Shown here: in pieces, positions 44,855 through 64,000 of the stretch
How positions within the stretch are numbered: the first letter of the stretch is position 1
Layout of the letters: every line of letters starts with the position of its first letter
Virus record (IMG/VR): IMGVR_UViG_3300031994_000011
Coordinates: 107,959 to 171,958 of that record
Source: a virus
Lineage: Duplodnaviria; Caudoviricetes
Length of the DNA: 64,000 nucleotides
Direction: 5' to 3' (one strand)
Notes under the pieces: generated by a model
The model's input: only the letters and a program-made list of their open reading frames with translations
Database searches by the model: none
What the model was told of the DNA's origin: nothing
Made by a program: the position numbers and the translations under genes

Positions 44855-45060
44855 TATTACGAAAATGTTACGATTGTAATACTTTTGTAACAATTTTTTT
44901 GTACTTTTTGGCCATTTTTTGACCATAAACGCCTTGGATGTAATACATCCAAAGCTGAAGGTTGCATTTTTGAGTCAAAAATGCTATAATTAGATGATGG
45001 AAGGAGCTTCCAGAGTCTGTAAATGTTACGGAAATGTTACAATTGTAACAGAATCGTAAC
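44855..45060. promoter_or_regulatory. WalR/OmpR-family-like direct-repeat boxes in two 37-bp blocks
   Basis: TATTAC-N5-TGTTAC-N3-TGTAAT-N5-TGTAAC (44855-44891) and TGTTAC-N5-TGTTAC-N3-TGTAAC-N5-CGTAAC (45024-45060). Confidence 0.5.
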
Positions 45061-45151
45061 AATTCCAGAAACTGGTGGATCCGCCCACCAGAGGCAGGCG
45101 CCAGCGGCGCCGCCGCTCTCCCGTCTCCCGCCTGGTCCCTAATATATACGA

Positions 45152-45215
45152 AGGAGCTGGAGCTGGAAGCTGGAGCTGGAAAACGGAGCTGGAGCTGGAG
45201 CTGAAGAAAGGAGCT
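45152..45215 (+). repeat. GGAGCT hexamer tandem repeat in the leader of the first early gene
   Basis: ggagctggagctggaagctggagctggaaaacggagctggagctggagctg...ggagct. Confidence 0.8.
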
Positions 45216-45221
45216 ACAACA

Positions 45222-45386
45222 ATGAAGAGCTACGAAATCATCTACAACAGGGCGCGGAAAGAATTTAATGTCTGGGCGATCGGAAGCAACGGCAACGCGG
45301 AGATCGTCAAGCGGGCCACCACAAAAAGGAGTTATGAATTGTGGCTCATGCGTAAGGGCGTGAGCAATTGGACCGATAGAACGTGA
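45222..45386 (+). CDS. Small early protein, 54 aa (family A)
   Basis: SD AAAGGAG; YNRARKEF motif shared with 46909 and 48210. Confidence 0.7.
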   Translation: MKSYEIIYNRARKEFNVWAIGSNGNAEIVKRATTKRSYELWLMRKGVSNWTDRT

Positions 45387-45541
45387 ACCTTGCTCATGGT
45401 CCGGCCGAAGGCGACAAGCCTTCGGCCTTTCACAATTTGGATGTAATACATCCAAAGTTACTCGTTGACACCCGATGGACATCGGGTGTATAATAAGACC
45501 ATAGAAAGAGGTCAACCTCTTACCGAAAGGAGATCACCACA

Positions 45542-45697
45542 ATGAAAACCACCACCACTTACGCCGTTATCACTTGCGACACCTTCCGCACGATCAAGTC
45601 CGGCTTCAAGACTTGGGAAGGCGCGTATGAATGGATGCTCGCGCATGACTGGGGCCAGTACGAACTTGAGGGCGGCCTTTACGTGATCAAGTGCTAA
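45542..45697 (+). CDS. Small early protein, 51 aa
   Basis: TTGACA/TATAAT promoter, SD AAAGGAG, MKTTTTYAVITC... Confidence 0.7.
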   Translation: MKTTTTYAVITCDTFRTIKSGFKTWEGAYEWMLAHDWGQYELEGGLYVIKC

Positions 45698-45873
45698 GCG
45701 CGCCGATCACGCAAAATCCGGGCACCGTGAGAAATCACGATGTCCAAAGTAATTGGATGTAATACATCCAAGTTTTCAGAGCATTTGAGAAAAAAATTTC
45801 TTGATATTATTGTCATGCTATAATATAATATAATTGTCCTAAGGGACAGAATAAAAGAAAGAAGGAAAAAATC

Positions 45874-46077
45874 ATGTTTAATGAACTGAATGTCGAACTC
45901 GCCGTTGTTTTTGCCCATTATGCGGAACACAGGGATTCTCGCGTTGCTTTCCTCGGCAGGAAGGCCGATCATGAAGAACTGACCGATGTGGAAATGACCG
46001 AATACATCAACCGCCTTGAGCGTCTATACAAGCAATTTCGCGCTGAACGCGCCGCCCTCCTCGGGGAAAAGGGCTAA
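45874..46077 (+). CDS. Small early protein, 67 aa
   Basis: Promoter, SD and terminator. Confidence 0.7.
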   Translation: MFNELNVELAVVFAHYAEHRDSRVAFLGRKADHEELTDVEMTEYINRLERLYKQFRAERAALLGEKG

Positions 46078-46215
46078 GGCCCTTTTTCTTTTTTCACGAA
46101 AGTTGGATGTAATACATCCAAAAAGCGACCGTTGACAACCGTTCCCGGTTGTGGTATAATGGGCGTAGCCCGAGAGGGAAAGGGGAACACCACCACCAAA
46201 GGAGGATTATTAAAC

Positions 46216-46461
46216 ATGTCTAAAAACACTTTTGATTGCATTGACTTCCGCACCGCTCGCCGCCTTGCTGCTCACGGCTGGACTATTTTTTCACGCGATA
46301 CCGGTGAAGGCTGGCAATGGAACACGGCGGCCTGCTCTGCGCGTCACATCCGTCGCGGCATGAGCGGACAGCCGGACGAGATTCGCGCTTGTCTCGCGTG
46401 GCTTGGGAAGAGCCAACCGAAGGTCTTGACTTTTAAGGCTAAAAAAGAAAAATGGGAATAA
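46216..46461 (+). CDS. Small early protein, 81 aa
   Basis: SD GGAGG; start refined to MSKNTF. Confidence 0.7.
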   Translation: MSKNTFDCIDFRTARRLAAHGWTIFSRDTGEGWQWNTAACSARHIRRGMSGQPDEIRACLAWLGKSQPKVLTFKAKKEKWE

Positions 46462-46573
46462 TCCCATTTTTCTTTTTTCAATAACTTTGGATGTAATACA
46501 TCCAAAGTGCTCTCTTGCATAATCCAAAGGATTATGCTAAAATAAGACATAATCAGAAAGGAGGTCAGTAAAA

Positions 46574-46747: not shown

Positions 46748-46908
46748 TCACAAGTAAAAAGTAAATAAAGACAATGAATAAGAGAGAATACAATAAGTAT
46801 TCTCTCTTTTATATATACCATAATTGGATGTAATACATCCAAAAAGAGTAGTTGACAACGTTGTTGTCAACTGTTATAATGGTATCATCAAAGAAGGAGG
46901 TAAGTACA

Positions 46909-47043: not shown

Positions 47044-47182
47044 TACGCAGGCCTTCGGGCCTTGCGAAAGTTGGATGTAATACATCCAAAATGAAAATGA
47101 TCGAAGGGGTTGACATTCTCTATTGATAGGTGTATAATGAGTGTAGTTCCAAGAGGGACACAAAAAGAAGGAGGACACAAAA

Positions 47183-47350: not shown

Positions 47351-47479
47351 AAAAAGCAAGGCGAAAGCCTTGCTTTTTTCTACGCATAATTGGATGTAAT
47401 ACATCCAAAAAGCGTACTTGCAATCTTGTCTTGTTTGTGCTATACTTGTACCATAAAGAAAGCAAGGGAGGCCATCACA

Positions 47480-47782: not shown

Positions 47783-47908
47783 GGCAGTACCCAGTTTCAG
47801 CATTTGGATGTATTACATCCAAAAACTCCTCTTGACTTTATGTGGTGGTTGTAGTATTATATACTTGTCCGAAGGGAAAAAACAGATTTTCAAGGAGGTT
47901 TATTAACT

Positions 47909-48109
47909 ATGTCTTATTCTTACGAACTGACCGCCCGTTTCCCCGTCATGGTCCGCGTGTACACCAGCGCCGGCGAGATCGTCGAACATTGCGCGCGCTC
48001 TCTCCGCGCCGCGCATGGGTGGTTTGCGCATTGCGCGGCCGAAGAATACTTTGAAGGACACCCCGTGCGGGTGGAATATGAATTTTACGAAGGGTACAGG
48101 TGGGGATAA
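47909..48109 (+). CDS. Small early protein, 66 aa
   Basis: SD AGGAGGT; terminator over the stop codon. Confidence 0.7.
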   Translation: MSYSYELTARFPVMVRVYTSAGEIVEHCARSLRAAHGWFAHCAAEEYFEGHPVRVEYEFYEGYRWG

Positions 48110-48209
48110 CCCACCTGTTGTTTTTTGGATGTAATACATCCAAAAAGGACTCTTGACTGTATTTCCCCTTTATGCTATAATGATACCATCAAAGAAGGAG
48201 GTAACAGCA

Positions 48210-48344
48210 ATGAGGTATGTGAAGCAGTTTAACAAGGCGCGCAAGGAATGGTGGATTTTCCGCGTGACGATGGACGGCGCCGAACTGACGAAGGTTTTTA
48301 AGACGGAAAAAGCTGCCGACAGCTGGATCCGCAAAAACACTTAA
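48210..48344 (+). CDS. Small early protein, 44 aa (family A)
   Basis: SD AAGGAGGT; KEWWIF..ELTKVFKTE.AD.WI shared with 46909. Confidence 0.75.
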   Translation: MRYVKQFNKARKEWWIFRVTMDGAELTKVFKTEKAADSWIRKNT

Positions 48345-48587
48345 GAGCTGGGCGGTATAACCGCCCAATTTCATTTTATTTTTGTTTTAATGATATTAAA
48401 AAAATTGTATATATAAAAATTATAAAATAAAACCCCACTCAATTTCATTTTTAAATATAATAAAAATTTTCAAAAATGAAAATTGGATGTAATACATCCA
48501 AAACCACCCCTTGACTTTATAGACCGGTTATGCTATTATATACTTGTCCGAAGGGACAAGAGATAAAAAAGAAAGAAGGACACAAAA

Positions 48588-48866
48588 ATGAAGAAATCTG
48601 TTAACGGTCACAATTACGCGCAGGCGAAAGAAATCATCTATGAAGACGGACGGCGTGAGCTGGTGAGCTACACCACAACCGTGATCGAAATCACGGCGGA
48701 CGGCTGGATGACCGTACACGGGCTGTACAGCCGCACTACGATCAAACACATCGGGTGGTTTATGCGTGAGATCGGCCTTACGTACCAACACGCGAAAAGA
48801 GCATACGAACGGCGCGACATTGAACAATTCAACGTTTACACCGGGGAGGTGAAGGAGGTGGCGTAA
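48588..48866 (+). CDS. Early protein, 92 aa
   Basis: Promoter, SD and terminator; LVSYTT...GLYSRTTIKHIGWF. Confidence 0.75.
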   Translation: MKKSVNGHNYAQAKEIIYEDGRRELVSYTTTVIEITADGWMTVHGLYSRTTIKHIGWFMREIGLTYQHAKRAYERRDIEQFNVYTGEVKEVA

Positions 48867-48990
48867 GCCACCTCTTTTTTTCATCTTCTAATTGGATGTA
48901 ATACATCCAAAACGTCCACTTGCTTTTTCAGGCATTCTGTGGTATACTTATATCATCAAGTGAGGGGTTGATCCCCAGAGGGAGGCCACT

Positions 48991-49137
48991 ATGTGGTATG
49001 TTTGTGATGAGTTCGGGTTCGCGTGGAGCAAGGGCATAGAAACTCTTGAGGAGGCGCAGCTGCAGCTGGAAGAGCTGCGCGCCGATGCCCGCAAAAAGGG
49101 CTGGGACTGGGGCTTTGAGATTGAAAAGCGGGGCTGA
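48991..49137 (+). CDS. Small early protein, 48 aa
   Basis: SD GGAGG; MWYVCDEFG... Confidence 0.65.
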   Translation: MWYVCDEFGFAWSKGIETLEEAQLQLEELRADARKKGWDWGFEIEKRG

Positions 49138-49268
49138 CCCGCTTTTCTTTTTATCACGCAGATTGGATGTAATACATCCAAAATGAATAGTTGACTTTCT
49201 TAAGATACTATGATATACTTATACCATCAAGTGAAGGACAACACTTAAAAACCAGAGAGGAAACTACA

Positions 49269-49442
49269 ATGTATCAGATTGTCAGGGTTTATGATGATGG
49301 CGCCACCGCAGCAGAGACCGCCCCTTCCTTCGTTTCCGCGCTGACCGCTTGCACGATCTACCTTGAGGATCCGAGCTGCATCGCAATAAAAATCAAGGAT
49401 CTCCGGGACAACAAAACCGTCATGGAATACTGGGCGGATTAA
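49269..49442 (+). CDS. Small early protein, 57 aa
   Basis: Leader hairpin motif; MYQIVRVY... Confidence 0.7.
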   Translation: MYQIVRVYDDGATAAETAPSFVSALTACTIYLEDPSCIAIKIKDLRDNKTVMEYWAD

Positions 49443-49556
49443 CCGCCCTTTTCTCGTTTGGATGTAATACATCCAAAATCCGAGATTGACTTTTCTATGA
49501 TTATATGTTATCATATACTTGTCCGAAGGGATAACAAATGAAAGGGGATTGAAACT

Positions 49557-49796
49557 ATGTGGCTTTTCTACTCTTACACTGATGGCTATATTCCTATGGG
49601 ATCTGATGGACAAATGAAAGTGCCTTCTTCTATGCGTTCAATGAAAAGCATCCAGAAGCTGGCAACGGCCTTCCTCGGCAAGCGAGCTGGGAGCGTGTAC
49701 CTCATGACCAGCTGGACGCAGGCGATGAGCGAGCTGGGACCGCGCGCGTTTGAAGAATATATCTTTCGCAATGGAAAGAAGGTTGCTCACTCATGA
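49557..49796 (+). CDS. Small early protein, 79 aa
   Basis: Promoter, SD and terminator. Confidence 0.7.
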   Translation: MWLFYSYTDGYIPMGSDGQMKVPSSMRSMKSIQKLATAFLGKRAGSVYLMTSWTQAMSELGPRAFEEYIFRNGKKVAHS

Positions 49797-49883
49797 GCAA
49801 CCTTTCTTTTTTAGTTAATATTGGATGTATTACATCCAAAATACCTTATTGACTTATTTCATTTTTCATGCTATACTATATTT

Positions 49884-50056
49884 GTCGAAAGGAAGAAAGG
49901 AGAGATGAAAAAATGACTCCCCCGCATTAAAGTAAGCCAGCGCATAAGATGCTTTATGCGGCGGCACTATTAAACGGAGAGCATCCTCCCGTTCCAGAAA
50001 GTGGCGGAGCTGGAGCGATTGAGCCAAACTGGACGATCAGCGCAATCGTCCAGTTT
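49884..50056 (+). ncRNA. Putative structured small RNA (only mini-ORFs MKK and MTPPH)
   Basis: Palindrome and promoter, then hairpins (gcataag...ttatgc) and an aaactggacgat/atcgtccagttt terminator; no ORF of note. Confidence 0.4.
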
Positions 50057-50152
50057 ATTTATATTGGATGTATTACATCCAAAAACGACCGTTGACTTTC
50101 TCACCCCTTTATGGTATACTTAAACCATCAAAGGAAAGGAAGGTAACAAACT

Positions 50153-50479
50153 ATGACGGAAAATATGACCTATCATTGCAGGGTTGAACGTGCTGACCGC
50201 GTGAACTGGATTATCAATGAAATCGGTTTGGGGCAGATTGTCAAGGAAAAGTATGGCAACATCAACGGCAAAGCTGCAACCTACACTTGCATCACCGATA
50301 CTGGCGTGACCATCATCAAGACGGGCGACAAGAAAGCAATCATCACTATGTATATCACCACCGCGCGGGAGCTGGTAGCTGTATACGGCGGGCAGAAAAA
50401 AATCCCTCTCGCCCTTCGGAAAAAGGTTGACCACAATCAGAGCAAATACATCAGGAACGGGAAAACAGTTTGGGCCTAA
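50153..50479 (+). CDS. Early protein, 108 aa
   Basis: Promoter, SD and terminator. Confidence 0.75.
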   Translation: MTENMTYHCRVERADRVNWIINEIGLGQIVKEKYGNINGKAATYTCITDTGVTIIKTGDKKAIITMYITTARELVAVYGGQKKIPLALRKKVDHNQSKYIRNGKTVWA

Positions 50480-50575
50480 CGGCCCAAATTTTATTTGGAT
50501 GTAATACATCCAAAAACCCCTCTTGCATTTCTCATAAAAATATGATATTATATAACCATGAAAGGGGTGTGTGAA

Positions 50576-50782
50576 ATGACTACAACGTGGCACTTTGAAG
50601 TATGGGGCGAGGACAGCGACCTTTTTGGTGAGCAGTTCTTTGTAGAGGTCGAAGGCAACCTTGACACGGCGAAGGCGAGGGCTATGGCGATCGCGCAAGA
50701 AAATTTTCCCGGCGAGCTGCTGAAATGCTGGGGACGTGTTTCTAAGCTGACAGCTGAAATGGCTGGATATGATACCTACTAA
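50576..50782 (+). CDS. Small acidic early protein, 68 aa
   Basis: MTTTWHFEV...AEMAGYDTY. Confidence 0.7.
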   Translation: MTTTWHFEVWGEDSDLFGEQFFVEVEGNLDTAKARAMAIAQENFPGELLKCWGRVSKLTAEMAGYDTY

Positions 50783-50909
50783 GGCGCGAAAGCGCCTTTT
50801 AGAGTTTGGATGTATTACATCCAAATTCTCTTCTTGCATAAATCCACCTTCTATGTTATAATGTTTGTGAAAAGAGGAAGGATACCTCACAAACCAGAAA
50901 GGCACTACT

Positions 50910-51347: not shown

Positions 51348-51489
51348 TGCAATGAGCGCGGCGAGCGCTCCCGTATTGGATGTAATACATCCAAATCACA
51401 TTTCAAAAAAAGACTTGACTTTTCCTTTTTACGTGATAAAATATATATGAAAGCGGAAGGAAAACCGCCCAAACCAGAAAGGTTATGAA

Positions 51490-52476: not shown

Positions 52477-52593
52477 GCCCTTTTTTCGTTAAAACGAAAT
52501 TGGATGTATTACATCCAATATTTTTCCCTTGACTTTTCTCAAAACTATGCTATAATAAACTTGTCTCAAAGAGACAGAAAGGAAGTAAAAAAT

Positions 52594-52749
52594 ATGACTC
52601 GCGATGAAATCATTAACTTTATTAACAAAGTTCTTCAAACCAATCCACAAGCATTCACACAGGATGAAGTTATTGAAGAAAACTATATTTATATTCCTGC
52701 CATTGAATTGATTAAAGATGCTATCACTGGTGAATGGCGCGCAATTTAA
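52594..52749 (+). CDS. Small early protein, 51 aa
   Basis: SD GAAAGGA; MTRDEII... Confidence 0.6.
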   Translation: MTRDEIINFINKVLQTNPQAFTQDEVIEENYIYIPAIELIKDAITGEWRAI

Positions 52750-53026
52750 TTAGTAAATTATTCTTGACAAAATGAGGAGCAATAAACTCCTCATTTTTAT
52801 TTTTTATAAATATTGGATGTATTACATCCAAATCAACTTATTGACTCCATTTCAAATCTATGCTATACTATCATTGTTCCGAGAGAGAAGGGAAAGTGGC
52901 GCGCGACACTTAACCCCTCTCAAAGAAAAAAAGTTTCAAAAGCCCCTTGACAATCAACCGAATCCATGCTATAATAAATCCGTAAGAAAGAGAAGGACAC
53001 TCTTAAAAAACCAGAAAGGGAAGATT

Positions 53027-53359
53027 ATGAAGAAGTCCACCATGATGAAAATTGCTGACTACATCCGCAATGTTCCCGAACTCGTTGAAGAGTTTGCCGA
53101 AATCGATGCCGAACTCAGCAAGACTGCCGAGAAGGCGAATGCTACCCGAGAACTCTATGGAACCGCACATGACATCGTGATGAGCGTTATGTCTGAAGTC
53201 CCCGCCACGGTGGCTGATATCTTCGCCAAGTGCGAAAGCGAACTCCCCGAAGGTTTTACTAAAGCAAAGGTTCAGTATGCACTCCTTAATTACTGGAAGG
53301 ATGAGGTCGTTAAGATTGATAACGGCAAGCGGTCGCCCATGACTTACCGCAAGGCGTAA
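53027..53359 (+). CDS. Putative winged-helix DNA-binding protein, 110 aa (family B)
   Basis: TVADIF...ELPEGFTKAKVQYAL...W shared with 59932 and 56008. Confidence 0.7.
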   Translation: MKKSTMMKIADYIRNVPELVEEFAEIDAELSKTAEKANATRELYGTAHDIVMSVMSEVPATVADIFAKCESELPEGFTKAKVQYALLNYWKDEVVKIDNGKRSPMTYRKA

Positions 53360-53465
53360 TATTAAGTTAAAAAAGAAAGGACCCTATGAAAATAGGGTCC
53401 TTTCTAATTTCAAAATGAAATTGGATGTAATACATCCAATTTCGTATCACAAAAAGAAAAGGGGA

Positions 53466-53801: not shown

Positions 53802-54040
53802 ACAACTTTCCTTTCTGGTTTTTTAGGCTTTTCCTTGCCTTTGTTATGATTTATTATAGCATGGATTTTAATGATAGTCAAGTGCTTTTTAAAAAATTTT
53901 TTACTTATAACATAACAATATTTGGATGTATTACATCCAATAAATATTAAAATTTTATTACAAAATTTTTAATTACCCCTTGACTTTTTCTTTAAGATAT
54001 GTTACAATTTAATTACAAAAGAAAAGGAGATGTTAAGAAA

Positions 54041-54368: not shown

Positions 54369-54776
54369 ATGAGTAAAGCGTCTCTTGAAAATGGTATCCG
54401 TAACGACATTCTCGCCGCCATCTCCGACCTGCTCGGCAAAAAGTATGATACTGATGTCCTTGTTACTGGCAGCAATGAAATCTGTATCCCTTGCCTTGAC
54501 TCTGAAGGGAATGAAAAGTACGCCGTGATTAAAGTTAGCATTCCCCGCGGTGAACGTAGCGGCGGCACCTATAAACCCTATAACGGATACAGTGTTGCCG
54601 AAGATTATGCCGCAGACGTGCAGGAAAGAACCGCTAAAGCCGAAGCACGCGCCGAAAAGAAAGCACACGAAGAAGCAGAGCGGGCGCGCAAGCGTGAAAT
54701 GCGCACCGTGAAGGTCAAAGAAACTGAAATGAAGAAGAAACTTGCCGAAGTGGCAAAACTTGGAAAGGAGGGCTAA
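54369..54776 (+). CDS. Early protein, 135 aa (family C)
   Basis: DSEGNEKYAVIKV and basic/acidic tail, similar to 62165 and 53466. Confidence 0.75.
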   Translation: MSKASLENGIRNDILAAISDLLGKKYDTDVLVTGSNEICIPCLDSEGNEKYAVIKVSIPRGERSGGTYKPYNGYSVAEDYAADVQERTAKAEARAEKKAHEEAERARKREMRTVKVKETEMKKKLAEVAKLGKEG

Positions 54777-54879
54777 GCCCCTCTTTCTTTATTGGATGTA
54801 TTACATCCAAAAATAAATATTGACTTTTTAAAAAACTTATGATATACTTTAATCACAAAATGAAGGGAGTGATTGAAGA

Positions 54880-55125
54880 ATGAAGATTTACGTTGCTACT
54901 GTTAAAAACGACCCTCTTGATACTGCAGATTCTTACGTTCTTGGAGTATACCCAAGCGAAGAAAAAGCAAATGAAAACATTAACAAATGGATAAATTTTC
55001 GTGGCGACAAATTAATTGATTATGCCCGGGAAGAAAGATTCTATCTTTATGATGAAGACGAGGACATGAATTTTCAGATTGACGTTGAAAGCGCCGACCT
55101 TGATAATGAACCTTGCTACGATTAA
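54880..55125 (+). CDS. Small acidic early protein, 81 aa
   Basis: VLGVYPSEEKA motif; promoter and terminator. Confidence 0.7.
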   Translation: MKIYVATVKNDPLDTADSYVLGVYPSEEKANENINKWINFRGDKLIDYAREERFYLYDEDEDMNFQIDVESADLDNEPCYD

Positions 55126-55377
55126 CGGCCTTCGGGCCTTCTTGATTATTGGATGTATTACATCCAAATCAAATAGTTGGCTTCTTAGAGAATCTGTGGT
55201 AATATATAATTGTTCCAAGGGGAAAGGAAAGGAGGCCAGGGTTAAAAAAAACTTAAAAAAAGTTTTGAAAAGCCCTTGACAAACTTCCAAATCTCTGGTA
55301 TAATAAAGATGTTCCAAGAGAGGAACACAAGAAATCGGGAAGGAAAACCCAAGCCAAACCAAAAAGGATTTACCACT

Positions 55378-55910: not shown

Positions 55911-56007
55911 AAAATTTCTAAAAACACTTGACATTATAAGCACTCTGTGCTATAATGAATACACAACAAGGGAAGGAAAACCCTCAAAAACCAGAAGGGA
56001 AATTATT

Positions 56008-56445
56008 ATGACTAAGAAAGACGCTCTTACTATCGCTCTGACCACGCTGACCGCTCCCACCTACGCCAATCCCAGCTTTGACGGTAAGGATACCACTCGC
56101 AAAGAAATTCCCGTTGAAGAAGTCCGTGAAGTCATTACCAAGATGATTGAACAGCTGATGAAGAGGGGCACTACCTCTGATAAGGCGAAGGAAGCCCGTA
56201 AGGCTAAGACCGCCGAAGCTCGCTCTGAACTGGTCAAGACTGTTGCTCCCGTTCTCCGCAAGGCTCTGACCGCCGCTCCCGAGGGTATGACCGCTAAGGA
56301 CTTGTTCGCCGCCTGTGAAAAGGAACTGCCCGAAGGTTTCACCGCCGCCAAGGTTCAGAATGTCCTTCTCCGTGAGATGGCCCCCGAACTGGAAAAGGTA
56401 GAAGAGAAGCGTAAGGCTAATGTTTACCGCCTGATTCAGGGCTAA
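56008..56445 (+). CDS. Putative winged-helix protein, 145 aa (family B)
   Basis: MTAKDLFAACEKELPEGFTAAKVQNVLL. Confidence 0.75.
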   Translation: MTKKDALTIALTTLTAPTYANPSFDGKDTTRKEIPVEEVREVITKMIEQLMKRGTTSDKAKEARKAKTAEARSELVKTVAPVLRKALTAAPEGMTAKDLFAACEKELPEGFTAAKVQNVLLREMAPELEKVEEKRKANVYRLIQG

Positions 56446-56604
56446 TGCCCAGCCGCCTTCGGGCGGTTTTTCTTTTTTCGGAAAAATTTGGATGTAATAC
56501 ATCCAAATCTAAAATTAAAAAGAGTCTTGACAAGACAGCTATTATATGATAAAATAAGACCATGAAAGAGGAAGGACACCTCCCAAACCAGAAAGTGAAC
56601 TACG

Positions 56605-56868
56605 ATGACGAAGAAAGTGATTGTTGAATGGACTTACACCGATGATTATGGCAGGTATGGCACCGGCAAGCGGAAACTGTTCGACACGATGGAAAAAGCC
56701 AATGAATGGATTGAAGCGATGAAAAAGAAGAATGGCGGTTACTTCCGTGTTATCCGTACTTACGAAATCAACTACGAAAAGTATCTGGAGATTGAAGAAC
56801 TCAAGAAGAAAGTGAACGAACTGTTCAACAAAATCGACGAACTGAATGAAGAGTTGGAGGTGAAATAA
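56605..56868 (+). CDS. Early protein, 87 aa, C-terminal coiled coil
   Basis: Promoter, leader and terminator. Confidence 0.7.
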   Translation: MTKKVIVEWTYTDDYGRYGTGKRKLFDTMEKANEWIEAMKKKNGGYFRVIRTYEINYEKYLEIEELKKKVNELFNKIDELNEELEVK

Positions 56869-57055
56869 ACAAAGGGGCGAAAGCCCTTTGTTTTTTATAG
56901 AGTTAGTTAGATACCTCTAACCGCCAGCCTGGTGCCTGGTGCTAAAAAATTTTTTTTAAAAATTTTGAAAAAAGGTGTTGACAACGCCCGCCCGGCATGG
57001 TATAATAAAGCCATGAAAGGGAAGGAAACCCTCCAAACCAGAAAGGATAACTAAA

Positions 57056-57316
57056 ATGAAAATTTATAAAATCGCTATGAGAAAGAACACTGGTTCCATC
57101 AAAGAAGTGCTTTTTACCTCAAAAGCAAAAGCGGTCGGTTATATCATCGGAAGGATGGACGCGGAAAAAGAAGGATGCCGCGCAATTGAAAAAAAGACAG
57201 ATAACTGGGAATATGATAAGAAAACAATTTGCGCGATTAAAAATTGGAATAAATTCTATTATATCATTGATGGCGGTTCAACAAAAGTCACAATTGAAGA
57301 AATCTTAGTATTATGA
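57056..57316 (+). CDS. Early protein, 86 aa
   Basis: Promoter, leader and terminator. Confidence 0.7.
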   Translation: MKIYKIAMRKNTGSIKEVLFTSKAKAVGYIIGRMDAEKEGCRAIEKKTDNWEYDKKTICAIKNWNKFYYIIDGGSTKVTIEEILVL

Positions 57317-57461
57317 GGGCTGAAAGCCCTCTTTTTTTGATCAAAGGTGATCAAAAATTTTTTAAAAAAATCAAAAAAAAGTGTTGACAAGCCAGCTATT
57401 GTGTGATAAAATAAAGCCATGAAAGGGAAAGGAAAATCCCAAACACCAGAAAGGTTAAAAT

Positions 57462-57644
57462 ATGTGTTACGAAGAAAAGTGCCCCATCTGCAATTCCGAA
57501 GATTATGAAGTAGAAGATTACTCTGATACCTTTGACACCTTTAGCGGAGAACAGTGGTGGGTTTGCGTATGCCCTAATGGTCACAAGTTTTCTATCACAA
57601 AAGTATACGACCTTAAAGATGTAATTATCGAACCAGAAGAGTGA
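57462..57644 (+). CDS. Zn-ribbon microprotein, 60 aa
   Basis: CPIC...CVCPNGH. Confidence 0.7.
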   Translation: MCYEEKCPICNSEDYEVEDYSDTFDTFSGEQWWVCVCPNGHKFSITKVYDLKDVIIEPEE

Positions 57645-57746
57645 CCGCTTCGGCGGTTCACGTCATTGGATGTAATACATCCAAAAACTCATGCTTGACT
57701 TTCTTATTTCATTATGCTATACTATCACTGTGAGGAGGGAAAAGAA

Positions 57747-57899
57747 ATGAGCAAAAAACAGAAGAACGCGCCCCGTTCCAACTATGAAGTCTATCGGTCT
57801 ATCCGTAAAGACTGGGGCGTTATCAATCCAGTGACCAAAGTTATCCCTGACAAGCGCAACAAAAAGTCAAAACATAAGAAAGGATGGGATGAAGAATAA
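57747..57899 (+). CDS. Small basic protein, 50 aa
   Basis: SD GAGGAGG; IRKDWGVINPVTKVIPDKR. Confidence 0.65.
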   Translation: MSKKQKNAPRSNYEVYRSIRKDWGVINPVTKVIPDKRNKKSKHKKGWDEE

Positions 57900-58090
57900 T
57901 GATGTGTCCACAGTGTGAAAATAGTGAAGTTGAAACTTGGATTGTTAATGACGAAACTAATATCAGGACTGATTTTAATGGAAAGGACTGGATGTCTATT
58001 ACTCAAGGTAGTTGTTGTAAAGAGTGCGGCTACATATGGTATGAACATTACTCAGGCTTGGCAACAGATTTTTACTGGACTAAAGATTGA
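57899..58090 (+). CDS. Zn-ribbon microprotein, 63 aa
   Basis: CPQC...CKECG. Confidence 0.65.
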   Translation: MMCPQCENSEVETWIVNDETNIRTDFNGKDWMSITQGSCCKECGYIWYEHYSGLATDFYWTKD

Positions 58091-58105
58091 AAGGTGGGAT
58101 GAAGA

Positions 58106-58360
58106 ATGATGAAATTTAAAAACATCAGAATGTATCTTGACAAAAAGGGCATTCGTTATTATGAATCTGATAACGGACAAAAACTTGTCATTAGGGCGTG
58201 TGCTTTTGATAGTGATAAAGAAAGTAATTTTTATGACTATGGAGAGCCCTACAAAAAACCTAAGTGCTATAATAAAGAAAAATTCTTTCAAGAGTTATTT
58301 AATGACACCCGTATCATAATTGTAGATTGCTCTGAATGTTGCGCTTGTGCAGGTTGGTAA
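58106..58360 (+). CDS. Small protein, 84 aa, Cys-rich C-terminus
   Basis: Intact ORF within the operon. Confidence 0.6.
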   Translation: MMKFKNIRMYLDKKGIRYYESDNGQKLVIRACAFDSDKESNFYDYGEPYKKPKCYNKEKFFQELFNDTRIIIVDCSECCACAGW

Positions 58361-58378
58361 AGAAAGGTGGAATGAAAA

Positions 58379-58540
58379 ATGATGCTTATTTGGAAAGCAC
58401 TTATAAGAGACGAATTAGGAAATGTCAAATATCGTTCTCCCGAATTTAATAAAAAATGGATTGCGATAAAATGGGCAAGCAATATAATTAATAAGCACAA
58501 AAAATTGGATGAATGGTTTTATGAAGTATGGTGTGAATAA
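58379..58540 (+). CDS. Small protein, 53 aa
   Basis: SD AAAGGTGG; MMLIWKALIRDE... Confidence 0.55.
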   Translation: MMLIWKALIRDELGNVKYRSPEFNKKWIAIKWASNIINKHKKLDEWFYEVWCE

Positions 58541-58557
58541 GGAAAGGCGGGATAAAA

Positions 58558-58746
58558 ATGATTGAGTCAATAGGCAATCAAATAATAGGTTATCAAGTAA
58601 TAGGCAGAAAATTCGGCCCAACTATTACAATTTGGAAAACTAAACAGCAGGCAGAAGAATATCTAAAAACTTTAGAAGAACATCTAAAAACTTTAGAATT
58701 TTTTGAGGATAACTGGAGAATTATTGAAGTTATTATTAAAAATTGA
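58558..58746 (+). CDS. Small protein, 62 aa
   Basis: SD; contains a tandem duplication atctaaaaactttagaa. Confidence 0.6.
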   Translation: MIESIGNQIIGYQVIGRKFGPTITIWKTKQQAEEYLKTLEEHLKTLEFFEDNWRIIEVIIKN

Positions 58747-58760
58747 AAGGATATGATAAA

Positions 58761-58973
58761 ATGAGTTCCATCAATGCCACCACCGCTTATCCTCTGTGCC
58801 CCTATTGTGATATTAAAGTTGAAGATATTGATACTCCATACTATGAACTTACTGATGAAAAAGCCATTTTTCAGCGCGTTGGAACGTGCCCTCATTGTAA
58901 ATGCTCTTTTGAATGGACCGAAGTCTATAAATGGGATGCCAAGTTCTACGACCTTAAAGAAATAGACAATTGA
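58761..58973 (+). CDS. Zn-ribbon microprotein, 70 aa
   Basis: CPYC...CPHC; SD GAAAGGA. Confidence 0.65.
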   Translation: MSSINATTAYPLCPYCDIKVEDIDTPYYELTDEKAIFQRVGTCPHCKCSFEWTEVYKWDAKFYDLKEIDN

Positions 58974-59114
58974 GGCGCAAGCCTCCTAATTGGATGTATT
59001 ACATCCAAAATATCATACGGGTGGCAAAAATTTCCAGTTGACAATTGATTCACTTTATGCTATACTCTATACATAAAGTGAAGGAAAACACTCCAAACCA
59101 GAAAGGGATTTAAA

Positions 59115-59873: not shown

Positions 59874-59931
59874 CGCCCTCTTTTTAGTTTGGATGTATTA
59901 CATCCAATTTTTCTATACAAAAAAAGAGGGC

Positions 59932-60270
59932 TTACGCCCTCTTCTGGTATTCATTTACTTTTCCCTCGGTCTTAATCACTTCATCGCCCCAGTATTCCCG
60001 CATAGCGTACTGAAGTTTAGACTTCGTGAAACCTTCGGGCATTTCGTCCTTCACGGCCTCCCAAATATCAGCAATCGTCATCGGCCTATCGGACAGCTTG
60101 GTGAACACCACATCATGCGCAGTAGCATACAGGGTACGATTCGCCGCCGCCTTATCCTCGCCCTTCTTGAGTTCAGCTTTCAGTTCATCGACAGCATCAG
60201 CGACATCAGAGGGCAGACCATTCTGGAACGCGAAGTAGTTAACGAGAGACTTCATAGAGGACTTCTTCAT
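59932..60270 (-). CDS. Putative winged-helix protein, 112 aa (family B)
   Basis: ANRTLYATAHDVV...EMPEGFTKSKLQYAMREYW. Confidence 0.75.
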   Translation of the reverse strand: MKKSSMKSLVNYFAFQNGLPSDVADAVDELKAELKKGEDKAAANRTLYATAHDVVFTKLSDRPMTIADIWEAVKDEMPEGFTKSKLQYAMREYWGDEVIKTEGKVNEYQKRA

Positions 60271-60688: not shown

Positions 60689-60834
60689 ATATTATAATAT
60701 CATAGATTTAAGGAAAAGTCAATTATCCTTATTGGATGTAATACATCCATTTTTAAATTAAAAAAGGGTTGACTATTATCAAATTTTCTGTTATACTATT
60801 CATGTAAAGAAACTCATTACAATTTGGGAGGAGA

Positions 60835-61047: not shown

Positions 61048-61175
61048 AGCAATCCCGGGCAACCGGGCTTTAGGATGTAATACATCCAAAAACCATACTT
61101 GCATTTTTTATAATCTTATGATATACTCTATATGAAAAGTGAAGGAAAACACTAAAACACCAGAAAGGAACGAAA

Positions 61176-61463
61176 ATGTTCGGATGCCACTACACCCACA
61201 AGTTTATTGAAACTTCTAAAGGTATTCTTCTTATTGATGTTGCTGACACTGGTTATACTGGCTGGGAAGGTGCTTTTGCAGAAGTTGACCTTGACTCTTT
61301 TGCAGAACAGTGGGGCGATAATAATTATACTTTTGAAGATGTTGTAAAATATGCCGAAGATTTTGATTGCATTTCAGATTGGGAAATTGTAAGCAACGGG
61401 CATAGGAATCCCGAAGTAGCAGAACGCAATGTATACCGGGCAATTAAAGGACTCACCACCTAA
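61176..61463 (+). CDS. Acidic early protein, 95 aa
   Basis: Promoter, leader and terminator. Confidence 0.7.
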   Translation: MFGCHYTHKFIETSKGILLIDVADTGYTGWEGAFAEVDLDSFAEQWGDNNYTFEDVVKYAEDFDCISDWEIVSNGHRNPEVAERNVYRAIKGLTT

Positions 61464-61582
61464 GCTCTTCGGGGCTATTGGATGTAATACATCCAGTATT
61501 TACTATTGACATTCTATCTCTTTTATACTATAATAATACCATCAGATGAAGGAAAACATCTTAAACCAGAAAGGTCATTAAA

Positions 61583-61864
61583 ATGGCAAATCTGTCTGAA
61601 ATCATTGCAGAACTTAATAATCTTAAGCGTGAAGAAACTCTCTGCTCTAAAGTACAGGGCCGCAGGAATTGGGTTATCAGGACGGAATTTATTAACAATA
61701 AAATGTATGTTAGGTATGCGGGTTCCTTCGGTGGCGCGGACAGATTCGGCTACCTTACTGAAAGTCTCCAGTATATGGCAGAACATCATGTCAGGTGGTA
61801 TGTATTTACATATAAAAAAGACTATACAGAAACACTTAATAAACTTAATCCCCTCCGCCTTTAA
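61583..61864 (+). CDS. Early protein, 93 aa
   Basis: Promoter, leader and terminator. Confidence 0.7.
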   Translation: MANLSEIIAELNNLKREETLCSKVQGRRNWVIRTEFINNKMYVRYAGSFGGADRFGYLTESLQYMAEHHVRWYVFTYKKDYTETLNKLNPLRL

Positions 61865-62164
61865 TGGCGGTCAGGGCATTGGATGTAATACATCCAAATT
61901 CTGAAACGAAAAATTACTTGACTTTCATTAAAATTTCTGCTATACTATATATGTCAAGAGGAACTGACGACCATTCCCAAGAAATCTTGGGCGGGCTTGC
62001 AAGAAAGACGCGGGTTAGCGGCGCAGAAGATTGGCTAACAAGAAGAGGACAGAAAATTTTTTGAAAAACTTTTCAAAAACCTCTTGACAATTCCCTCCTA
62101 CTATGATATAATAAAGCTATCAAGAGAAGGAAAACTCTTAAAAAACCAGAAAGGGCTAAAGTGT

Positions 62165-62527
62165 ATGGCTACTATTTCTAAATCTGTTGTTGATTCTGAC
62201 CTCCGCGCCCGTGTGTTCGCCGATATGTTCACTTCACTGGAAAAAGCAGAGCTTTCCGAAGGAACGTATCAGAAAATCAATGACCGCCAGTTTGGTGTGA
62301 TTCTGACCGATAAGAATGGTACCGAACGCTATGTCCGCATTGGCGTCATTGTCGCCGAGGAGCGCGAGGATATGACCGCGCGGGAACTGATGGAATCTGA
62401 AATTCGGGCCTATAACGAAAAGCAGGCGGCAAAGGCCGAAAAGGCCGCCAAACGTGCGGAAAAGGCGGCCAAGGATAAGGCCAAGCGCGAGAAGGAAGAA
62501 ACCAACAGCGATAGCCCCGACCAGTAA
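62165..62527 (+). CDS. Early protein, 120 aa (family C)
   Basis: TDKNGTERYVRIGV...KAEKAAKRAEK. Confidence 0.75.
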   Translation: MATISKSVVDSDLRARVFADMFTSLEKAELSEGTYQKINDRQFGVILTDKNGTERYVRIGVIVAEEREDMTARELMESEIRAYNEKQAAKAEKAAKRAEKAAKDKAKREKEETNSDSPDQ

Positions 62528-62684
62528 CCTTAATAAGGGAATTGTGGTGCAAACCGCAATTTCTTTTTTCTCAAGAAATTGGATGTATTACATCCAAATT
62601 CATCTCTTGCTTTTTCTAAAAACTTATGCTATACTATACTCACAGAAGTGAAGGAAAACACTTAAAACCAGAAAGGATTTTAAG

Positions 62685-62906
62685 ATGAAAAGAACTAAAC
62701 ATAAAATGACAAAATATCACATAACAATTAAACGTGCCCAACAGTATTTTCTTATTTACTATCGTGAAATATTCGGAGAATGGCCTTATTATAACGACAC
62801 CCCTTATCCTATTCTATTGAGAGCACATAAAAATTATAATCGTGCTGTTAATAATCCAAATTCATTATATAATAAAGTAAATCATCCCAATAAGCAACAA
62901 AAATAA
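62685..62906 (+). CDS. Basic early protein, 73 aa
   Basis: Promoter and leader. Confidence 0.6.
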   Translation: MKRTKHKMTKYHITIKRAQQYFLIYYREIFGEWPYYNDTPYPILLRAHKNYNRAVNNPNSLYNKVNHPNKQQK

Positions 62907-63003
62907 AAACTGTTAAATTAAATTTTTTATTGCTTTTTTCACAATCTATTTATAATATAACCATAAGTGAAGGAAACACTTAAAAACCGAAAGGATAAAA
63001 TCT

Positions 63004-63363
63004 ATGAAAATTATTACCACCTACGTTGCTTTTGATGATGAAGAGTTCAGCACCATGGAAGCGTGTCAGGCATACGAAAATTTTCATGTAGGATTGATGA
63101 TTGAAGCCGAAGATTGCTTTTCTTTCTTCGATGTCGGAATGCGTCAAATCTCACTTGACTATTCACACAATATTGAAGAAATGCTTGATGCTTTTGTTCG
63201 GGCATACGATGAGTGTTATTATATCATCGTAAAGAAAAATCCTTCTGATAATCTCAAAAGATTTATCAAAGACTATGAAGGACTCATACTGCCCGTTCAA
63301 AAAGGCTTTTGGCACTATAACAGCACTACCAGCGAATGGGAAAGAGTTACTGAAGACGCGTAA
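63004..63363 (+). CDS. Early protein, 119 aa
   Basis: YVAFDDEEFSTMEACQAYE N-terminus. Confidence 0.75.
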   Translation: MKIITTYVAFDDEEFSTMEACQAYENFHVGLMIEAEDCFSFFDVGMRQISLDYSHNIEEMLDAFVRAYDECYYIIVKKNPSDNLKRFIKDYEGLILPVQKGFWHYNSTTSEWERVTEDA

Positions 63364-63478
63364 GCGTCTTCTTTGGATGTAATACATCCATTTTCCCTCT
63401 TGACCTTTTAAAAATTTTATGATATACTCTCTTTGTAAGAAGTGAAGGAAACACTCAAAAAACCAGAAAGGCGTTATT

Positions 63479-63829
63479 ATGAAAATTACTCGCGTACTAA
63501 CTTACAACATTAGCGAAGATTATGTTCGTGATTTCTTTGACAATTGCTGGTGGGAAGATAAAACCGAACCCGATGAAATTGATTATGATTTTTTCATTGA
63601 CGGCCTCAGGGAAGAAGGCTATGACAACGAAGAAATTCTCCCCGATCAGGGCACTAAAGAAAAAATAATGCAAATTTGGCAAGAAGAATGTGATAAATAT
63701 CATAGAGAATTGGAAAACCCAACAGCAATAAAAGAGCAGATTGCTGAAGAACTTCAGCACTATAGAAGTGAAATGGAATATTATAAAAATAAGGTTGCTC
63801 AACTTGAAAAACAGTTGAAAGACGCGTAA
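63479..63829 (+). CDS. Acidic early protein, 116 aa, C-terminal coiled coil
   Basis: Promoter, leader and terminator. Confidence 0.75.
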   Translation: MKITRVLTYNISEDYVRDFFDNCWWEDKTEPDEIDYDFFIDGLREEGYDNEEILPDQGTKEKIMQIWQEECDKYHRELENPTAIKEQIAEELQHYRSEMEYYKNKVAQLEKQLKDA

Positions 63830-64000
63830 GCGTCTTTTTCTTTTTTGGATGTATTACATCCAAATAGCGCGCTTCCGCGCATTAGGAATGAAACAAGCGC
63901 AACTTTCCATTGATGCGCGGCGGAGCATCCTTTTTTACAACAGGATGATATTCCCACCATTCGGAACCGTCATATTCCTGACGATCGTAATAACTACCGT

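What the first reader, a model, noticed from the sequence alone, without database searches (positions are those of the whole stretch)
44934..63863. 37-copy palindromic operator helically phased to early promoters, defining a gene-cassette array
Seen: TTGGATGTAWTACATCCAA usually lies between the terminator of one gene and the promoter of the next. The gap to the -35 hexamer is 8-10 bp (mostly 9) in most copies, otherwise 18-20 (47071, 51376, 56488, 60732, 61879), 29 (45753, 58990) or 39-40 bp (53922, both directions), i.e. steps of one helical turn. It also occurs between convergent terminators (53421, 59889). I saw none in the late half. Inference: a dimeric protein binds on the same face as RNA polymerase and switches the whole early regulon. 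It could also organise the DNA or act as a recombination site for cassette shuffling.
Basis: partly seen in the sequence, partly recalled or inferred. Interest (0 to 1): 0.8.

Follow-up and report, generated by a model that had tools for sequence, protein, structure and literature searches.

The report
Palindromic operator array on phage early promoters
A 172-kb rumen phage puts the same 19-bp palindrome exactly 9 bp upstream of most of its ~45 early-gene promoters; this is most likely a shared binding site for an unidentified regulator, and it is also where single-gene cassettes are gained and lost.

Summary
The window holds 37 copies (32 perfect; 0.09 expected by chance). A 38th lies across the circular junction. 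There are no others in the 172-kb genome.

About 31 copies follow a GC hairpin, mostly an intrinsic terminator. Twenty-five lie 8-10 bp upstream of a sigma-A-type -35 box. In seven relatives, 174 of 191 promoter-linked copies have the same gap. Helical phasing of the exceptions is only weakly supported.

Evidence that this is a promoter-coupled binding site for a dimeric protein:
- The arms are as conserved as the -35 and -10 boxes, while the adjacent spacers are random.
- Related lineages carry different but still perfectly symmetric 19-mers at the same distance from -35.
- The palindrome sits at about -63 to -45. A second, palindrome-free promoter class in the same arrays has an A/T-tract UP-like element there.

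The binder is not identified. An array-encoded winged-helix family is the only candidate, and it failed the covariation test.

Separately, homology breakpoints between near relatives pile up on the palindrome (57 within 20 bp against 13 expected), and one cassette indel is exact to the base. Cassette gain and loss at the palindrome is therefore shown.

The closest known parallels are T4-type PeSL cassettes, the Cluster O mycobacteriophage 17-bp repeats, and stoperators. I class it as a new variant of a known kind. The scan had also noted this array from another window (e1-5761316).

The parts
44934..63863 (.). Early-gene cassette array. It holds 37 palindrome copies and about 45 small ORFs in the standard code. 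It continues about 450 bp beyond the window end, across the circular junction, to a 38th copy.
44934..44952 (.). Copy 1. Perfect; gap of 9 bp to the -35 box. First cassette, next to the control hub.
45437..45455 (.). Copy 2; gap 9
45753..45771 (.). Copy 3; gap 29, with an A-tract between the palindrome and the -35 box
46103..46121 (.). Copy 4; gap 10
46487..46505 (.). Copy 5; gap 9
46824..46842 (.). Copy 6; gap 9
47071..47089 (.). Copy 7; gap 20. Left boundary of cassette c7, which is absent from near relatives L125 and L147.
47390..47408 (.). Copy 8; gap 9. Right boundary of the c7 cassette indel.
47804..50824 (.). Copies 9-18, starting at 47804, 48125, 48483, 48892, 49163, 49458, 49821, 50064, 50495 and 50806. 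All perfect, all with gap 9.
51376..51394 (.). Copy 19; gap 20 with an A-tract
52500..52831 (.). Copies 20 and 21 (52500, gap 10; 52813, gap 9). The cassette between them is replaced in relative L135.
53421..53439 (.). Copy 22; no promoter. Lies between convergent terminators.
53922..53940 (.). Copy 23. Divergent promoters lie 39 bp (+) and 40 bp (-) away, with A/T tracts in between.
54263..55167 (.). Copies 24-26: 54263 (the only copy with an arm mismatch; gap 10), 54792 (gap 9) and 55149 (weak promoter at gap 9)
56488..58990 (.). Copies 27-29, starting at 56488 (gap 20), 57666 (gap 10) and 58990 (gap 29; it ends at 59008). These head longer units of two to six genes.
59889..59907 (.). Copy 30; no promoter. 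Lies between convergent terminators, at the left end of an inverted unit.
60732..60750 (.). Copy 31. Bidirectional: gap 18 to a + promoter and gap 9 to a - promoter. Right end of the inverted unit.
61071..63391 (.). Copies 32-36, starting at 61071 (gap 9), 61478 (gap 9), 61879 (gap 20), 62579 (gap 9) and 63373 (gap 8)
63845..63863 (.). Copy 37; no + strand promoter. It is followed by the 3' end of a - strand gene that runs over the window end.
52947..52975 (+). Class-U promoter: perfect hexamers, an A/T-tract UP-like element upstream, and no palindrome. Others start at 54205, 55276, 55928, 56978, 57384 and 62084 on the + strand, and one lies on the - strand at 60349-60321. The palindrome-less promoter at 55723, also listed, heads a tRNA-like RNA.
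53027..53359 (+). Winged-helix paralogue c21 (110 aa), a candidate binder. It has a class-U promoter 80 nt upstream, and a palindrome-type promoter further upstream.
56008..56445 (+). Winged-helix paralogue c26b (145 aa), behind the class-U promoter at 55928
59932..60270 (-). Winged-helix paralogue c30 (112 aa), in an inverted unit behind a class-U promoter

Best explanation
The 19-mer has two 8-bp arms (TTRGATGT) around a free 3-bp centre, so the half-site centres lie one helical turn apart. I read it as the shared binding site of a dimeric sequence-specific protein. It is attached to about 34 of the roughly 45 sigma-A-type early promoters of this phage.

It ends 9 bp upstream of the -35 box, which puts it at about -63 to -45. 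This is the slot where the RNA-polymerase alpha C-terminal domain normally touches an UP element. The palindrome-free promoters of the same array do carry an A/T-tract UP-like element there.

A protein bound at this position can reach RNA polymerase at every cassette, so the early genes form one regulon. The promoters already have near-consensus -35, TG-extended -10 and -10 boxes. For that reason I think co-ordinated shut-off or throttling of early transcription is more likely than activation (about 60:40). Possible mechanisms are competition with the alpha domain, or a phi29 p4-like hold on RNA polymerase. The binder is probably phage-encoded, because the site sequence changes between phage lineages.

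The palindrome is also the longest identical sequence shared by all cassettes. As a consequence, it is the preferred crossover point for deleting, inserting, replacing and inverting whole promoter-gene-terminator cassettes.

Shown: copy number, confinement to the early array, spacing, conservation, lineage variants, and breakpoints at the palindrome.
Inferred: protein binding, its dimeric nature, the contact with RNA polymerase, and the sign of regulation.
For: 1. There are 37 copies against 0.09 expected in the window, 38 in the genome, and all lie in the early array.
2. Spacing is fixed. The gap to the -35 box is 8-10 bp in 25 of 35 promoter-linked sites here and in 174 of 191 in seven relatives. 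Orthologous cassette proteins in those relatives are only 40-69% identical to this phage's.
3. In 111 aligned sites the arms carry 1.5-2.6 bits per position, like the -35 and -10 boxes. The 9-bp gap and the 17-bp promoter spacer carry about 0 bits. The distance from the upstream hairpin to the palindrome varies from 1 to 16 nt. The constraint is therefore on the promoter side.
4. Symmetry survives sequence change. Position 3/17 is G:C in all sites here and A:T in all sites of G003, G004, G005 and G007. Other lineages carry TTAGGTGT, TTAGGTGG or TCGTACGT arms, each as a perfect 19-bp palindrome with 16-21 copies ending 7-9 bp from the -35 box.
5. The arrays contain two promoter classes. Palindrome-free promoters have A/T tracts at about -40 to -70. 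Long-gap copies have an A-tract inserted between the palindrome and the -35 box.
6. The site lies between terminator and promoter, so it is rarely transcribed. Its hairpin is weak, at -4.6 to -7.8 kcal/mol.
7. For recombination, 57 of 135 homology breakpoints lie within 20 bp of a palindrome centre, against 13.1 +/- 3.4 expected. One cassette indel is exact to the base.
Against: - No binder was found. Forty-eight array ORFs gave no HTH hit in Pfam.
- The two XRE-type proteins of the genome have no detectable counterpart in motif-bearing G005 and G007.
- The array-encoded winged-helix family also occurs in relatives without the palindrome, and its recognition helices do not track palindrome type.
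- c16 is about 90% identical between genomes with different palindrome types.
- A site centred near -54 does not overlap the core promoter, so simple steric repression is not expected.
- Three copies have no promoter at all.
- Uniform variants within each genome could arise from gene conversion alone.
- There are no expression or binding data.
Confidence: 0.6

Rival explanations
1. The palindrome is primarily a recombination element with no regulatory role. Either a phage or host recombination system uses it as short homology, as with T4-type PeSLs, or a site-specific enzyme binds it as a dimer. Its purpose would be to mobilise promoter-gene-terminator cassettes. The constant distance to the promoter would be inherited with the cassette unit.
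For: - Breakpoints between near relatives concentrate on the palindrome, and one indel is exact.
- Inverted units are bounded by copies, and copies sit between convergent terminators where there is no promoter.
- About 60% of the cassette genes are unique to this genome.
- All copies in a genome share the same variant, as concerted evolution would give.
- A PD-(D/E)XK-like nuclease candidate (window 43731-44525, - strand) sits next to the array.
Against: - Homology alone needs neither dyad symmetry nor a fixed 9-bp distance to the -35 box. Both are kept while the flanking spacers are randomised and the palindrome sequence itself changes between lineages.
- No tyrosine recombinase scores above the Pfam cut-off in the genome.
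- The free centre is only 3 bp, and in G005-G007 it varies between copies within a genome, which does not suit a strand-exchange core.
- The nuclease candidate has no detectable full-length homologue in G003, G004, G005 or G007. G005 and G007 carry only a shorter protein with a shared motif at the same hub position.
- Some indels lie in promoter or leader sequence instead (L144).
Confidence: 0.2
2. The palindrome is the operator of a host transcription factor. The phage would use it to read host physiology at its early promoters, or, with 38 copies per genome, to soak that factor up as a decoy.
For: - The neighbouring control hub carries host-type operators; earlier notes report CIRCE (not tested here).
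- No phage-encoded binder could be identified.
- One Clostridiales MAG has the A-variant inside a longer palindrome in a promoter-like intergenic region (L042).
Against: - A scan of 596 Gb of representative bacterial and archaeal genomes found only 22 single copies, in unrelated taxa and mostly inside genes. My own estimate of the chance expectation is about 17.
- Closely related phages carry different palindrome types. G006 and L181 share about 90% identity in c16 but differ in type, which suggests a binder that travels with the phage.
- A decoy would not need a fixed distance to the -35 box.
Confidence: 0.12
3. The palindrome acts as a nucleic-acid structure: a DNA cruciform, an extra terminator or insulator hairpin, an RNA processing site, or a hairpin promoter of the N4 type.
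For: - It has 8-bp arms and a 3-nt centre.
- Symmetric (compensatory) changes occur between lineages.
- A few copies are followed by T-runs and are called terminator-like by the consensus scan.
Against: - The hairpin is weak, at -4.6 to -7.8 kcal/mol, and weakest in the commonest variant.
- It lies downstream of a real GC-rich terminator in most cassettes, so it is rarely transcribed.
- Hybrid sites (G on one arm, T on the other) make up a third to a half of sites in G001, G002 and G006. In any such site one strand's hairpin has an A-C mismatch.
- The stem is too short for RNase III.
Confidence: 0.05

Closest known systems
PeSL (promoter-early stem-loop) cassettes of T4-type phages (Arbiol et al. 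2010, PMC2839356; Comeau et al. 2014, PMC4122927)
   Same: - Small ORFan genes in a hyperplastic region.
- Each gene is flanked by a composite terminator stem-loop plus a strong housekeeping-sigma early promoter.
- Insertions, deletions and replacements between relatives map to these repeated regulatory units.
   Different: - PeSLs have no separate invariant palindrome; crossovers fall in the promoter, A/T-rich or SD parts.
- Here a 19-bp dyad is inserted between terminator and promoter at a fixed distance, is the main crossover point, and changes sequence between lineages while keeping its symmetry.
- The phages are unrelated: this one has a host with Bacillota-like promoters and ribosome-binding sites, and late genes in which TAG is recoded.
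Cluster O mycobacteriophage 17-bp repeat TGTTCGG-N3-CCGAACA (Cresawn et al. 2015, PMC4351075)
   Same: - More than 30 copies per genome.
- Invariant inverted arms around a variable 3-bp centre.
- No orientation bias of the centre.
- Function unknown.
   Different: - The Cluster O sites are spread throughout the genome, and many lie at or inside the 5' ends of genes.
- They are not tied to the predicted SigA promoters.
- Here the sites are confined to the early array and locked 9 bp upstream of the -35 box.
- The sequences are unrelated.
Stoperators of Cluster A mycobacteriophages (PMC9283540, PMC6550527). From my own knowledge, other multi-operator regulons such as phage P1 C1 and plasmid RK2 KorA/KorB are comparable.
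   Same: - Tens of copies of one short site through a block of genes, bound by one repressor.
- The site sequence and the repressor diversify between lineages (immunity-like specificities).
   Different: - Stoperators are asymmetric 13-14 bp sites, bound by a monomer and oriented with transcription.
- They act inside transcription units by blocking elongation.
- Here the site is symmetric, lies upstream of promoters in untranscribed DNA, and has no known repressor.
- No integrase was found, and nothing else indicates a temperate life style.
UP element / class I activator position at bacterial promoters (established knowledge: Estrem et al. 1998; phi29 p4 at A2c/A3)
   Same: - The palindrome occupies about -63 to -45, the region contacted by the alpha C-terminal domain.
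- The other promoter class in the same array has A/T tracts in that position.
   Different: - The palindrome is not A/T-tract-like.
- Its centre, near -54, is not a canonical CRP-type class I position (-61.5, -71.5).
- Transcription start sites are inferred, not mapped.

Membership tests
PeSL-type mobile regulatory cassette | Composite unit of a terminator stem-loop plus a strong housekeeping-sigma early promoter between small genes | tested here: met
   Twenty-six to 31 of 37 sites have a hairpin just upstream. Thirty-four have a sigma-A-type promoter downstream.
PeSL-type mobile regulatory cassette | The units lie in a hyperplastic region rich in ORFans | tested here: met
   About 60% of the 46 array ORFs have no homologue in seven relatives. 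A collinear conserved backbone lies between them. Pfam and PHROGs are mostly blank.
PeSL-type mobile regulatory cassette | Indel and replacement junctions between relatives map to the repeated unit | tested here: met
   Fifty-seven of 135 breakpoints lie within 20 bp of the palindrome centre, against 13.1 +/- 3.4 expected. The c7 indel is exact.
PeSL-type mobile regulatory cassette | Excised cassette mini-circles during infection | not testable with these tools
   This needs inverse PCR on infected cells.
PeSL-type mobile regulatory cassette | Descent: element of T4-like myovirus genomes | tested here: not met
   There is no nucleotide match to any of 50,697 phage records. The genome organisation differs and TAG is recoded. 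The element works like a PeSL but is not a member by descent.
Operator set of a single-regulator regulon (stoperator / P1 C1 / KorB type) | Many copies of one conserved short site associated with transcription units | tested here: met
Operator set of a single-regulator regulon (stoperator / P1 C1 / KorB type) | A cognate DNA-binding protein encoded by the element | tested here: inconclusive
   The winged-helix family is found in every array but shows no covariation with site type. XRE-type proteins are not universal.
Operator set of a single-regulator regulon (stoperator / P1 C1 / KorB type) | Site specificity diversifies between lineages | tested here: met
   Types A(G), A(A), B1, B2 and D share the same geometry.
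Stoperator (strict sense) | Asymmetric site inside transcribed regions, oriented with transcription | tested here: not met
   The site is symmetric, lies between terminator and promoter, and shows only a mild centre-base bias.
Integron attC cassette array | Adjacent tyrosine integrase; promoterless cassettes; long imperfect attC palindromes | tested here: not met
   PF00589 scores below its cut-off (best 11.8 bits). Every cassette has its own promoter. The site is a 19-bp perfect dyad.
Intrinsic terminator / structured RNA | Stable GC-rich hairpin followed by a U-run within a transcript | tested here: not met
   The hairpin dG is -4.6 to -7.8 kcal/mol. The site lies after the real terminator and is usually followed by A residues.
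Host transcription-factor regulon operator | Multiple occurrences in promoter regions of a bacterial genome | tested here: inconclusive
   An exact scan of 596 Gb gave 22 singletons, about the chance level. Degenerate host sites would be missed, and the host is unknown.

The most novel reading that the evidence does not exclude
The palindrome is a lineage-specific 'barcode' that does two jobs. It is the operator of a fast-evolving phage regulator that switches the whole early regulon. It is also the address that restricts cassette exchange to co-infecting phages carrying the same barcode. That would amount to an integrase-free, integron-like gene-capture system for host-takeover genes, in which all 20-40 copies and the regulator change specificity together (G to A at position 3, A to G at position 5, T to G at position 8).
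Probability: 0.2. Interest if true: 0.8.

Novelty: new variant of a known kind. Interest (0 to 1): 0.62.

Why it matters
This phage group is abundant in rumen and gut metagenomes; one of its early proteins alone has more than 2,200 relatives. Its early regions are almost entirely genes of unknown function.

- A single conserved site on most early promoters gives a handle for finding the master early regulator, for example by DNA pull-down.
- It gives a way to delimit early genes automatically in uncultured relatives.
- It gives a way to sort their promoters into two classes.
- The breakpoint data show how host-takeover genes are swapped one cassette at a time. This extends the PeSL idea from T4-like phages of Gram-negative hosts to an unrelated, TAG-recoded phage whose host has Bacillota-like promoters and ribosome-binding sites.
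- The stepwise, symmetric change of all copies between lineages is a clean natural case of concerted operator evolution.

Tried and rejected
- **Close relatives.** Megablast of the array and of the late region against 50,697 phage records gave no match.
- **Host operator.** The scan of bacterial genomes gave only chance-level singletons.
- **ORF0 as the binder.**
  - ORF0 is window 43731-44525 (- strand), 264 aa.
  - Full-length homologues occur only in the genomes with G-type sites.
  - The model (pLDDT 91) gives only weak PD-(D/E)XK nuclease-like matches: NhoI Z 5.1, I-Ssp6803I Z 4.9.
  - G003 and G004 have other genes at that position, so the co-occurrence is probably linkage.
- **c24 as the binder.**
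  - c24 is window 54369-54776, the only small array protein shared by all relatives.
  - The model (pLDDT 93.8) is a helix, a five-strand sheet and a 60-residue charged helix.
  - It has no significant fold match and no named Atlas neighbours.
- **XRE-type HTH proteins.** They lie at genome 8476-8613 and 75452-75580. They are absent from G005 and G007.
- **Tyrosine recombinase.** None scores above the cut-off.
- **Hub and late-operon proteins.** Pfam on six of them gave nothing.
- **Winged-helix family.** It is a real DNA-binding fold by profile and always sits behind class-U promoters. It is also present in palindrome-free relatives, and its recognition helix is unchanged between site types.
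- **Presence/absence screen.**
  - I looked for proteins found only in palindrome-bearing arrays.
  - The best hits, c16 and c14, are restricted to the A and B types.
  - c16 is nearly identical across the two types.
- **Helical phasing.** Not significant in relatives.
- **Literature.** A search for the motif strings found no paper.
- **Tool failure.** The search for related loci with the winged-helix alignment failed because it had no conserved stretch.

Full report
**Context.**
- The window is the last 64 kb of a 171,958-bp virus record whose ends overlap by 127 bp, so the assembly is circular.
- Long open frames in most of the genome appear only if TAG is read as a sense codon.
- The stretch holding the finding is different. 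Its G+C is 0.37-0.44, against 0.25-0.37 for the late region in the first 40 kb of the window.
- It has 43 confidently called small ORFs that end in TAA (34) or TGA (9), never TAG, and contain no in-frame TAG.
- Promoters are of the TTGACA-17-TATAAT type with a TG extension, and ribosome-binding sites are strong. This points to a host with Bacillota-like promoters and ribosome-binding sites.
- No phage record in the held collection resembles it at the nucleotide level.

**Observation.**
- The motif TTGGATGTAWTACATCCAA occurs 37 times in the window at the stated coordinates. Thirty-two copies are perfect and five have one mismatch. Shuffled sequence gives 0.09.
- The genome has 38 copies in one 19.4-kb block and none elsewhere.
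- The typical unit reads: GC hairpin with T-tail, 1-16 nt, palindrome, 9 nt, -35 box, 17 nt with TG, -10 box, conserved leader, SD, small ORF.
- Twenty-five copies have a gap of 8-10 bp.
- Three copies, not two, have no promoter. Each sits where a + strand gene meets the tail of a - strand gene.

**Relatives.**
- Exact-pattern scans found the same element in at least a dozen large IMG/VR contigs and about 70 rumen and gut metagenome contigs.
- I fetched six large relatives (108-188 kb) in full, and also used a 10-kb fragment from the scans. Each has 14-40 copies confined to one block of 5-22 kb.
- Orthologous cassette proteins in these relatives are only 40-69% identical to this phage's, and about 60% of this phage's array ORFs have no counterpart.
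- Even so, 174 of 191 promoter-linked copies in the relatives sit 8-10 bp from the -35 box, 156 of them at exactly 9.
- In a logo of 111 sites, the arms are as informative as the promoter hexamers, while the 9-bp gap and the promoter spacer carry no information.
- The long gaps in relatives (17, 19-21, 23, 29-30 and some doubtful calls) do not show significant 10-11 bp periodicity.

**Symmetry through change.**
- Position 3 and its mirror position 17 are G:C in every site of this genome.
- They are A:T in every site of G003, G004, G005 and G007.
- They are mixed, with many half-and-half sites, in G001, G002 and G006.
- The central three bases vary freely in G005-G007.
- Using the widespread early protein c24 as an anchor, I fetched 37 more distant loci. 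Some carry other perfect 19-bp palindromes at the same distance from the -35 box:
  - arms TTAGGTGT: 16-21 copies, gap 8-9;
  - arms TTAGGTGG: 20 copies, gap 7-9;
  - arms TCGTACGT: 16 copies, gap 8-9.
- Another type (TTAGACG arms) is repeated but is not promoter-linked by my scorer.
- Other relatives have different upstream repeats, or only A/T tracts.
- Geometry and dyad symmetry are therefore conserved while the sequence drifts in symmetric single steps. This is what a dimeric binder that co-evolves with its sites would give.
- The hybrid sites argue against a need for base pairing. The hairpin is weak (-4.6 to -7.8 kcal/mol), and the site lies in DNA that is mostly not transcribed.

**Position.**
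- With the usual numbering, the palindrome spans about -63 to -45. This is inferred, because no start sites are mapped.
- The same arrays contain a second promoter class without the palindrome. These promoters have near-perfect hexamers and runs of A and T at about -40 to -70, which looks like an UP element.
- In the long-gap copies, an A-tract lies between the palindrome and the -35 box.
- The palindrome thus takes the place of the UP element, which suggests an interplay with the alpha C-terminal domain of RNA polymerase.
- The palindrome-type promoters look strong on their own, so I favour a shut-off or throttling role. That would make sigma replacement an unlikely switch.
- Activation or recruitment remains possible.

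**Search for the binder.**
- Pfam and PHROGs are nearly blank on the array proteins.
- One family of 106-145 residue proteins, with three paralogues here, gives consistent winged-helix signals:
  - Hop2 winged helix, E 3e-4;
  - MJ223, E 6.5e-3;
  - HTH_IclR in 5 of 15 members;
  - TrmB, E 1.9e-5.
- All 13 members in this phage and its closer relatives (G001, G003, G004, G006) sit 79-87 nt behind a class-U promoter. That would suit a regulator that escapes its own operator.
- However, the family is also present in every palindrome-free relative, and its recognition helix does not change with palindrome type. It is only a candidate.
- ORF0, c24, c16, the XRE-type proteins and the hub proteins gave no support (see 'tried and rejected').

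**Recombination.**
- Near relatives at 88-98% identity allowed breakpoint mapping.
- Contigs L125 and L147 lack exactly one cassette (window 47091-47388). Their left flank matches the left side of the copy at 47071, and their right flank matches the right side of the copy at 47390.
- Similar junctions are seen between G001 and G006 (1,049 bp) and between L028, L033 and L034 (about 300 bp).
- Overall, 47 of 135 internal homology ends lie within 12 bp of a palindrome centre and 57 within 20 bp, against 13.1 +/- 3.4 expected.
- Some junctions lie elsewhere, for example L144 in promoter or leader sequence.
- Units in reverse orientation are bounded by copies, as inversion between symmetric sites would give.
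- No tyrosine recombinase was found, so short-homology recombination is the simplest mechanism.

**Comparison and verdict.**
- The cassette behaviour matches T4-type PeSLs.
- The repeat geometry matches the unexplained 17-bp repeats of Cluster O mycobacteriophages.
- The multi-site regulon idea matches stoperators.
- None of these combines a symmetric site locked to the UP-element slot of early promoters, lineage-specific variants, and crossover at the site.
- No paper in the library contains the motif.
- I rate it a new variant of a known kind. It is real and widespread, and the binder and the direction of control remain open.

Noticed in passing
window 52947, 54205, 55276, 55928, 56978, 57384, 62084 (+) and 60349-60321 (-): A second early promoter class has perfect or near-perfect hexamers, no palindrome, and a conserved A/T-tract element just upstream (runs of A, then GTTTC or TTTT, then A5). 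The same element recurs in relatives. It may be an UP element or a second operator with partial dyad symmetry.
   Followed up: partly
window 43731-44525 (-): A 264-aa early protein in the standard code lies between the array and the late operon. Its invariant residues include a D...E..GHNGK pattern, and it has weak fold matches to PD-(D/E)XK nucleases (NhoI, I-Ssp6803I). Full-length homologues occur only in genomes with G-type palindromes. G005 and G007 carry shorter proteins with a shared motif at the same position.
   Followed up: partly
window 54369-54776 (+): c24 is the only small array protein shared by all relatives, and its family has more than 2,247 members in metagenomes with no Pfam domain. 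The confident model shows a helix, a five-strand sheet and a 60-residue Lys/Glu-rich helix. Its only fold hits are weak ones to small nucleotide-sponge-like proteins (Tad1, Acb4), and they are not significant.
   Followed up: partly
window 44934-63863: TAG is absent both as a stop and as a sense codon from 43 early ORFs (3,834 codons; stops are TAA 34 and TGA 9). G+C is 0.37-0.44, against 0.25-0.37 in the TAG-recoded late region in the first 40 kb of the window.
   Followed up: yes
window 54205-54295: A class-U promoter and a strong SD lead straight into the only palindrome copy with an arm mismatch (54263). The TTG at the start of that copy opens a 10-codon mini-ORF that runs into the next promoter.
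   Followed up: no
window 46909-47043, 48210-48344 and 45222-45386: The first two are 44-aa paralogues, 65% identical, in separate cassettes. The 54-aa protein at 45222-45386 looks related by eye but gave no BLAST hit. This suggests cassette duplication within the array.
   Followed up: no
loci L186, L193, L188, L192, L182, L187 (relatives): Instead of the 19-mer, early promoters in these relatives carry a roughly 35-bp inverted repeat: AT-rich outer arms of the TGTAAATTAGA type around a GC core such as GGCCGGCC or GTACGTAC. It ends in TTAAC directly abutting the -35 box. This is a different upstream module in the same promoter slot.
   Followed up: partly
L042 (Clostridiales MAG contig SFFS01000044.1), position 846-864: A single A-variant copy lies inside a longer 29-bp palindrome, in a promoter-like intergenic region next to a divergent gene start. 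It may be a host operator or a chance match.
   Followed up: no
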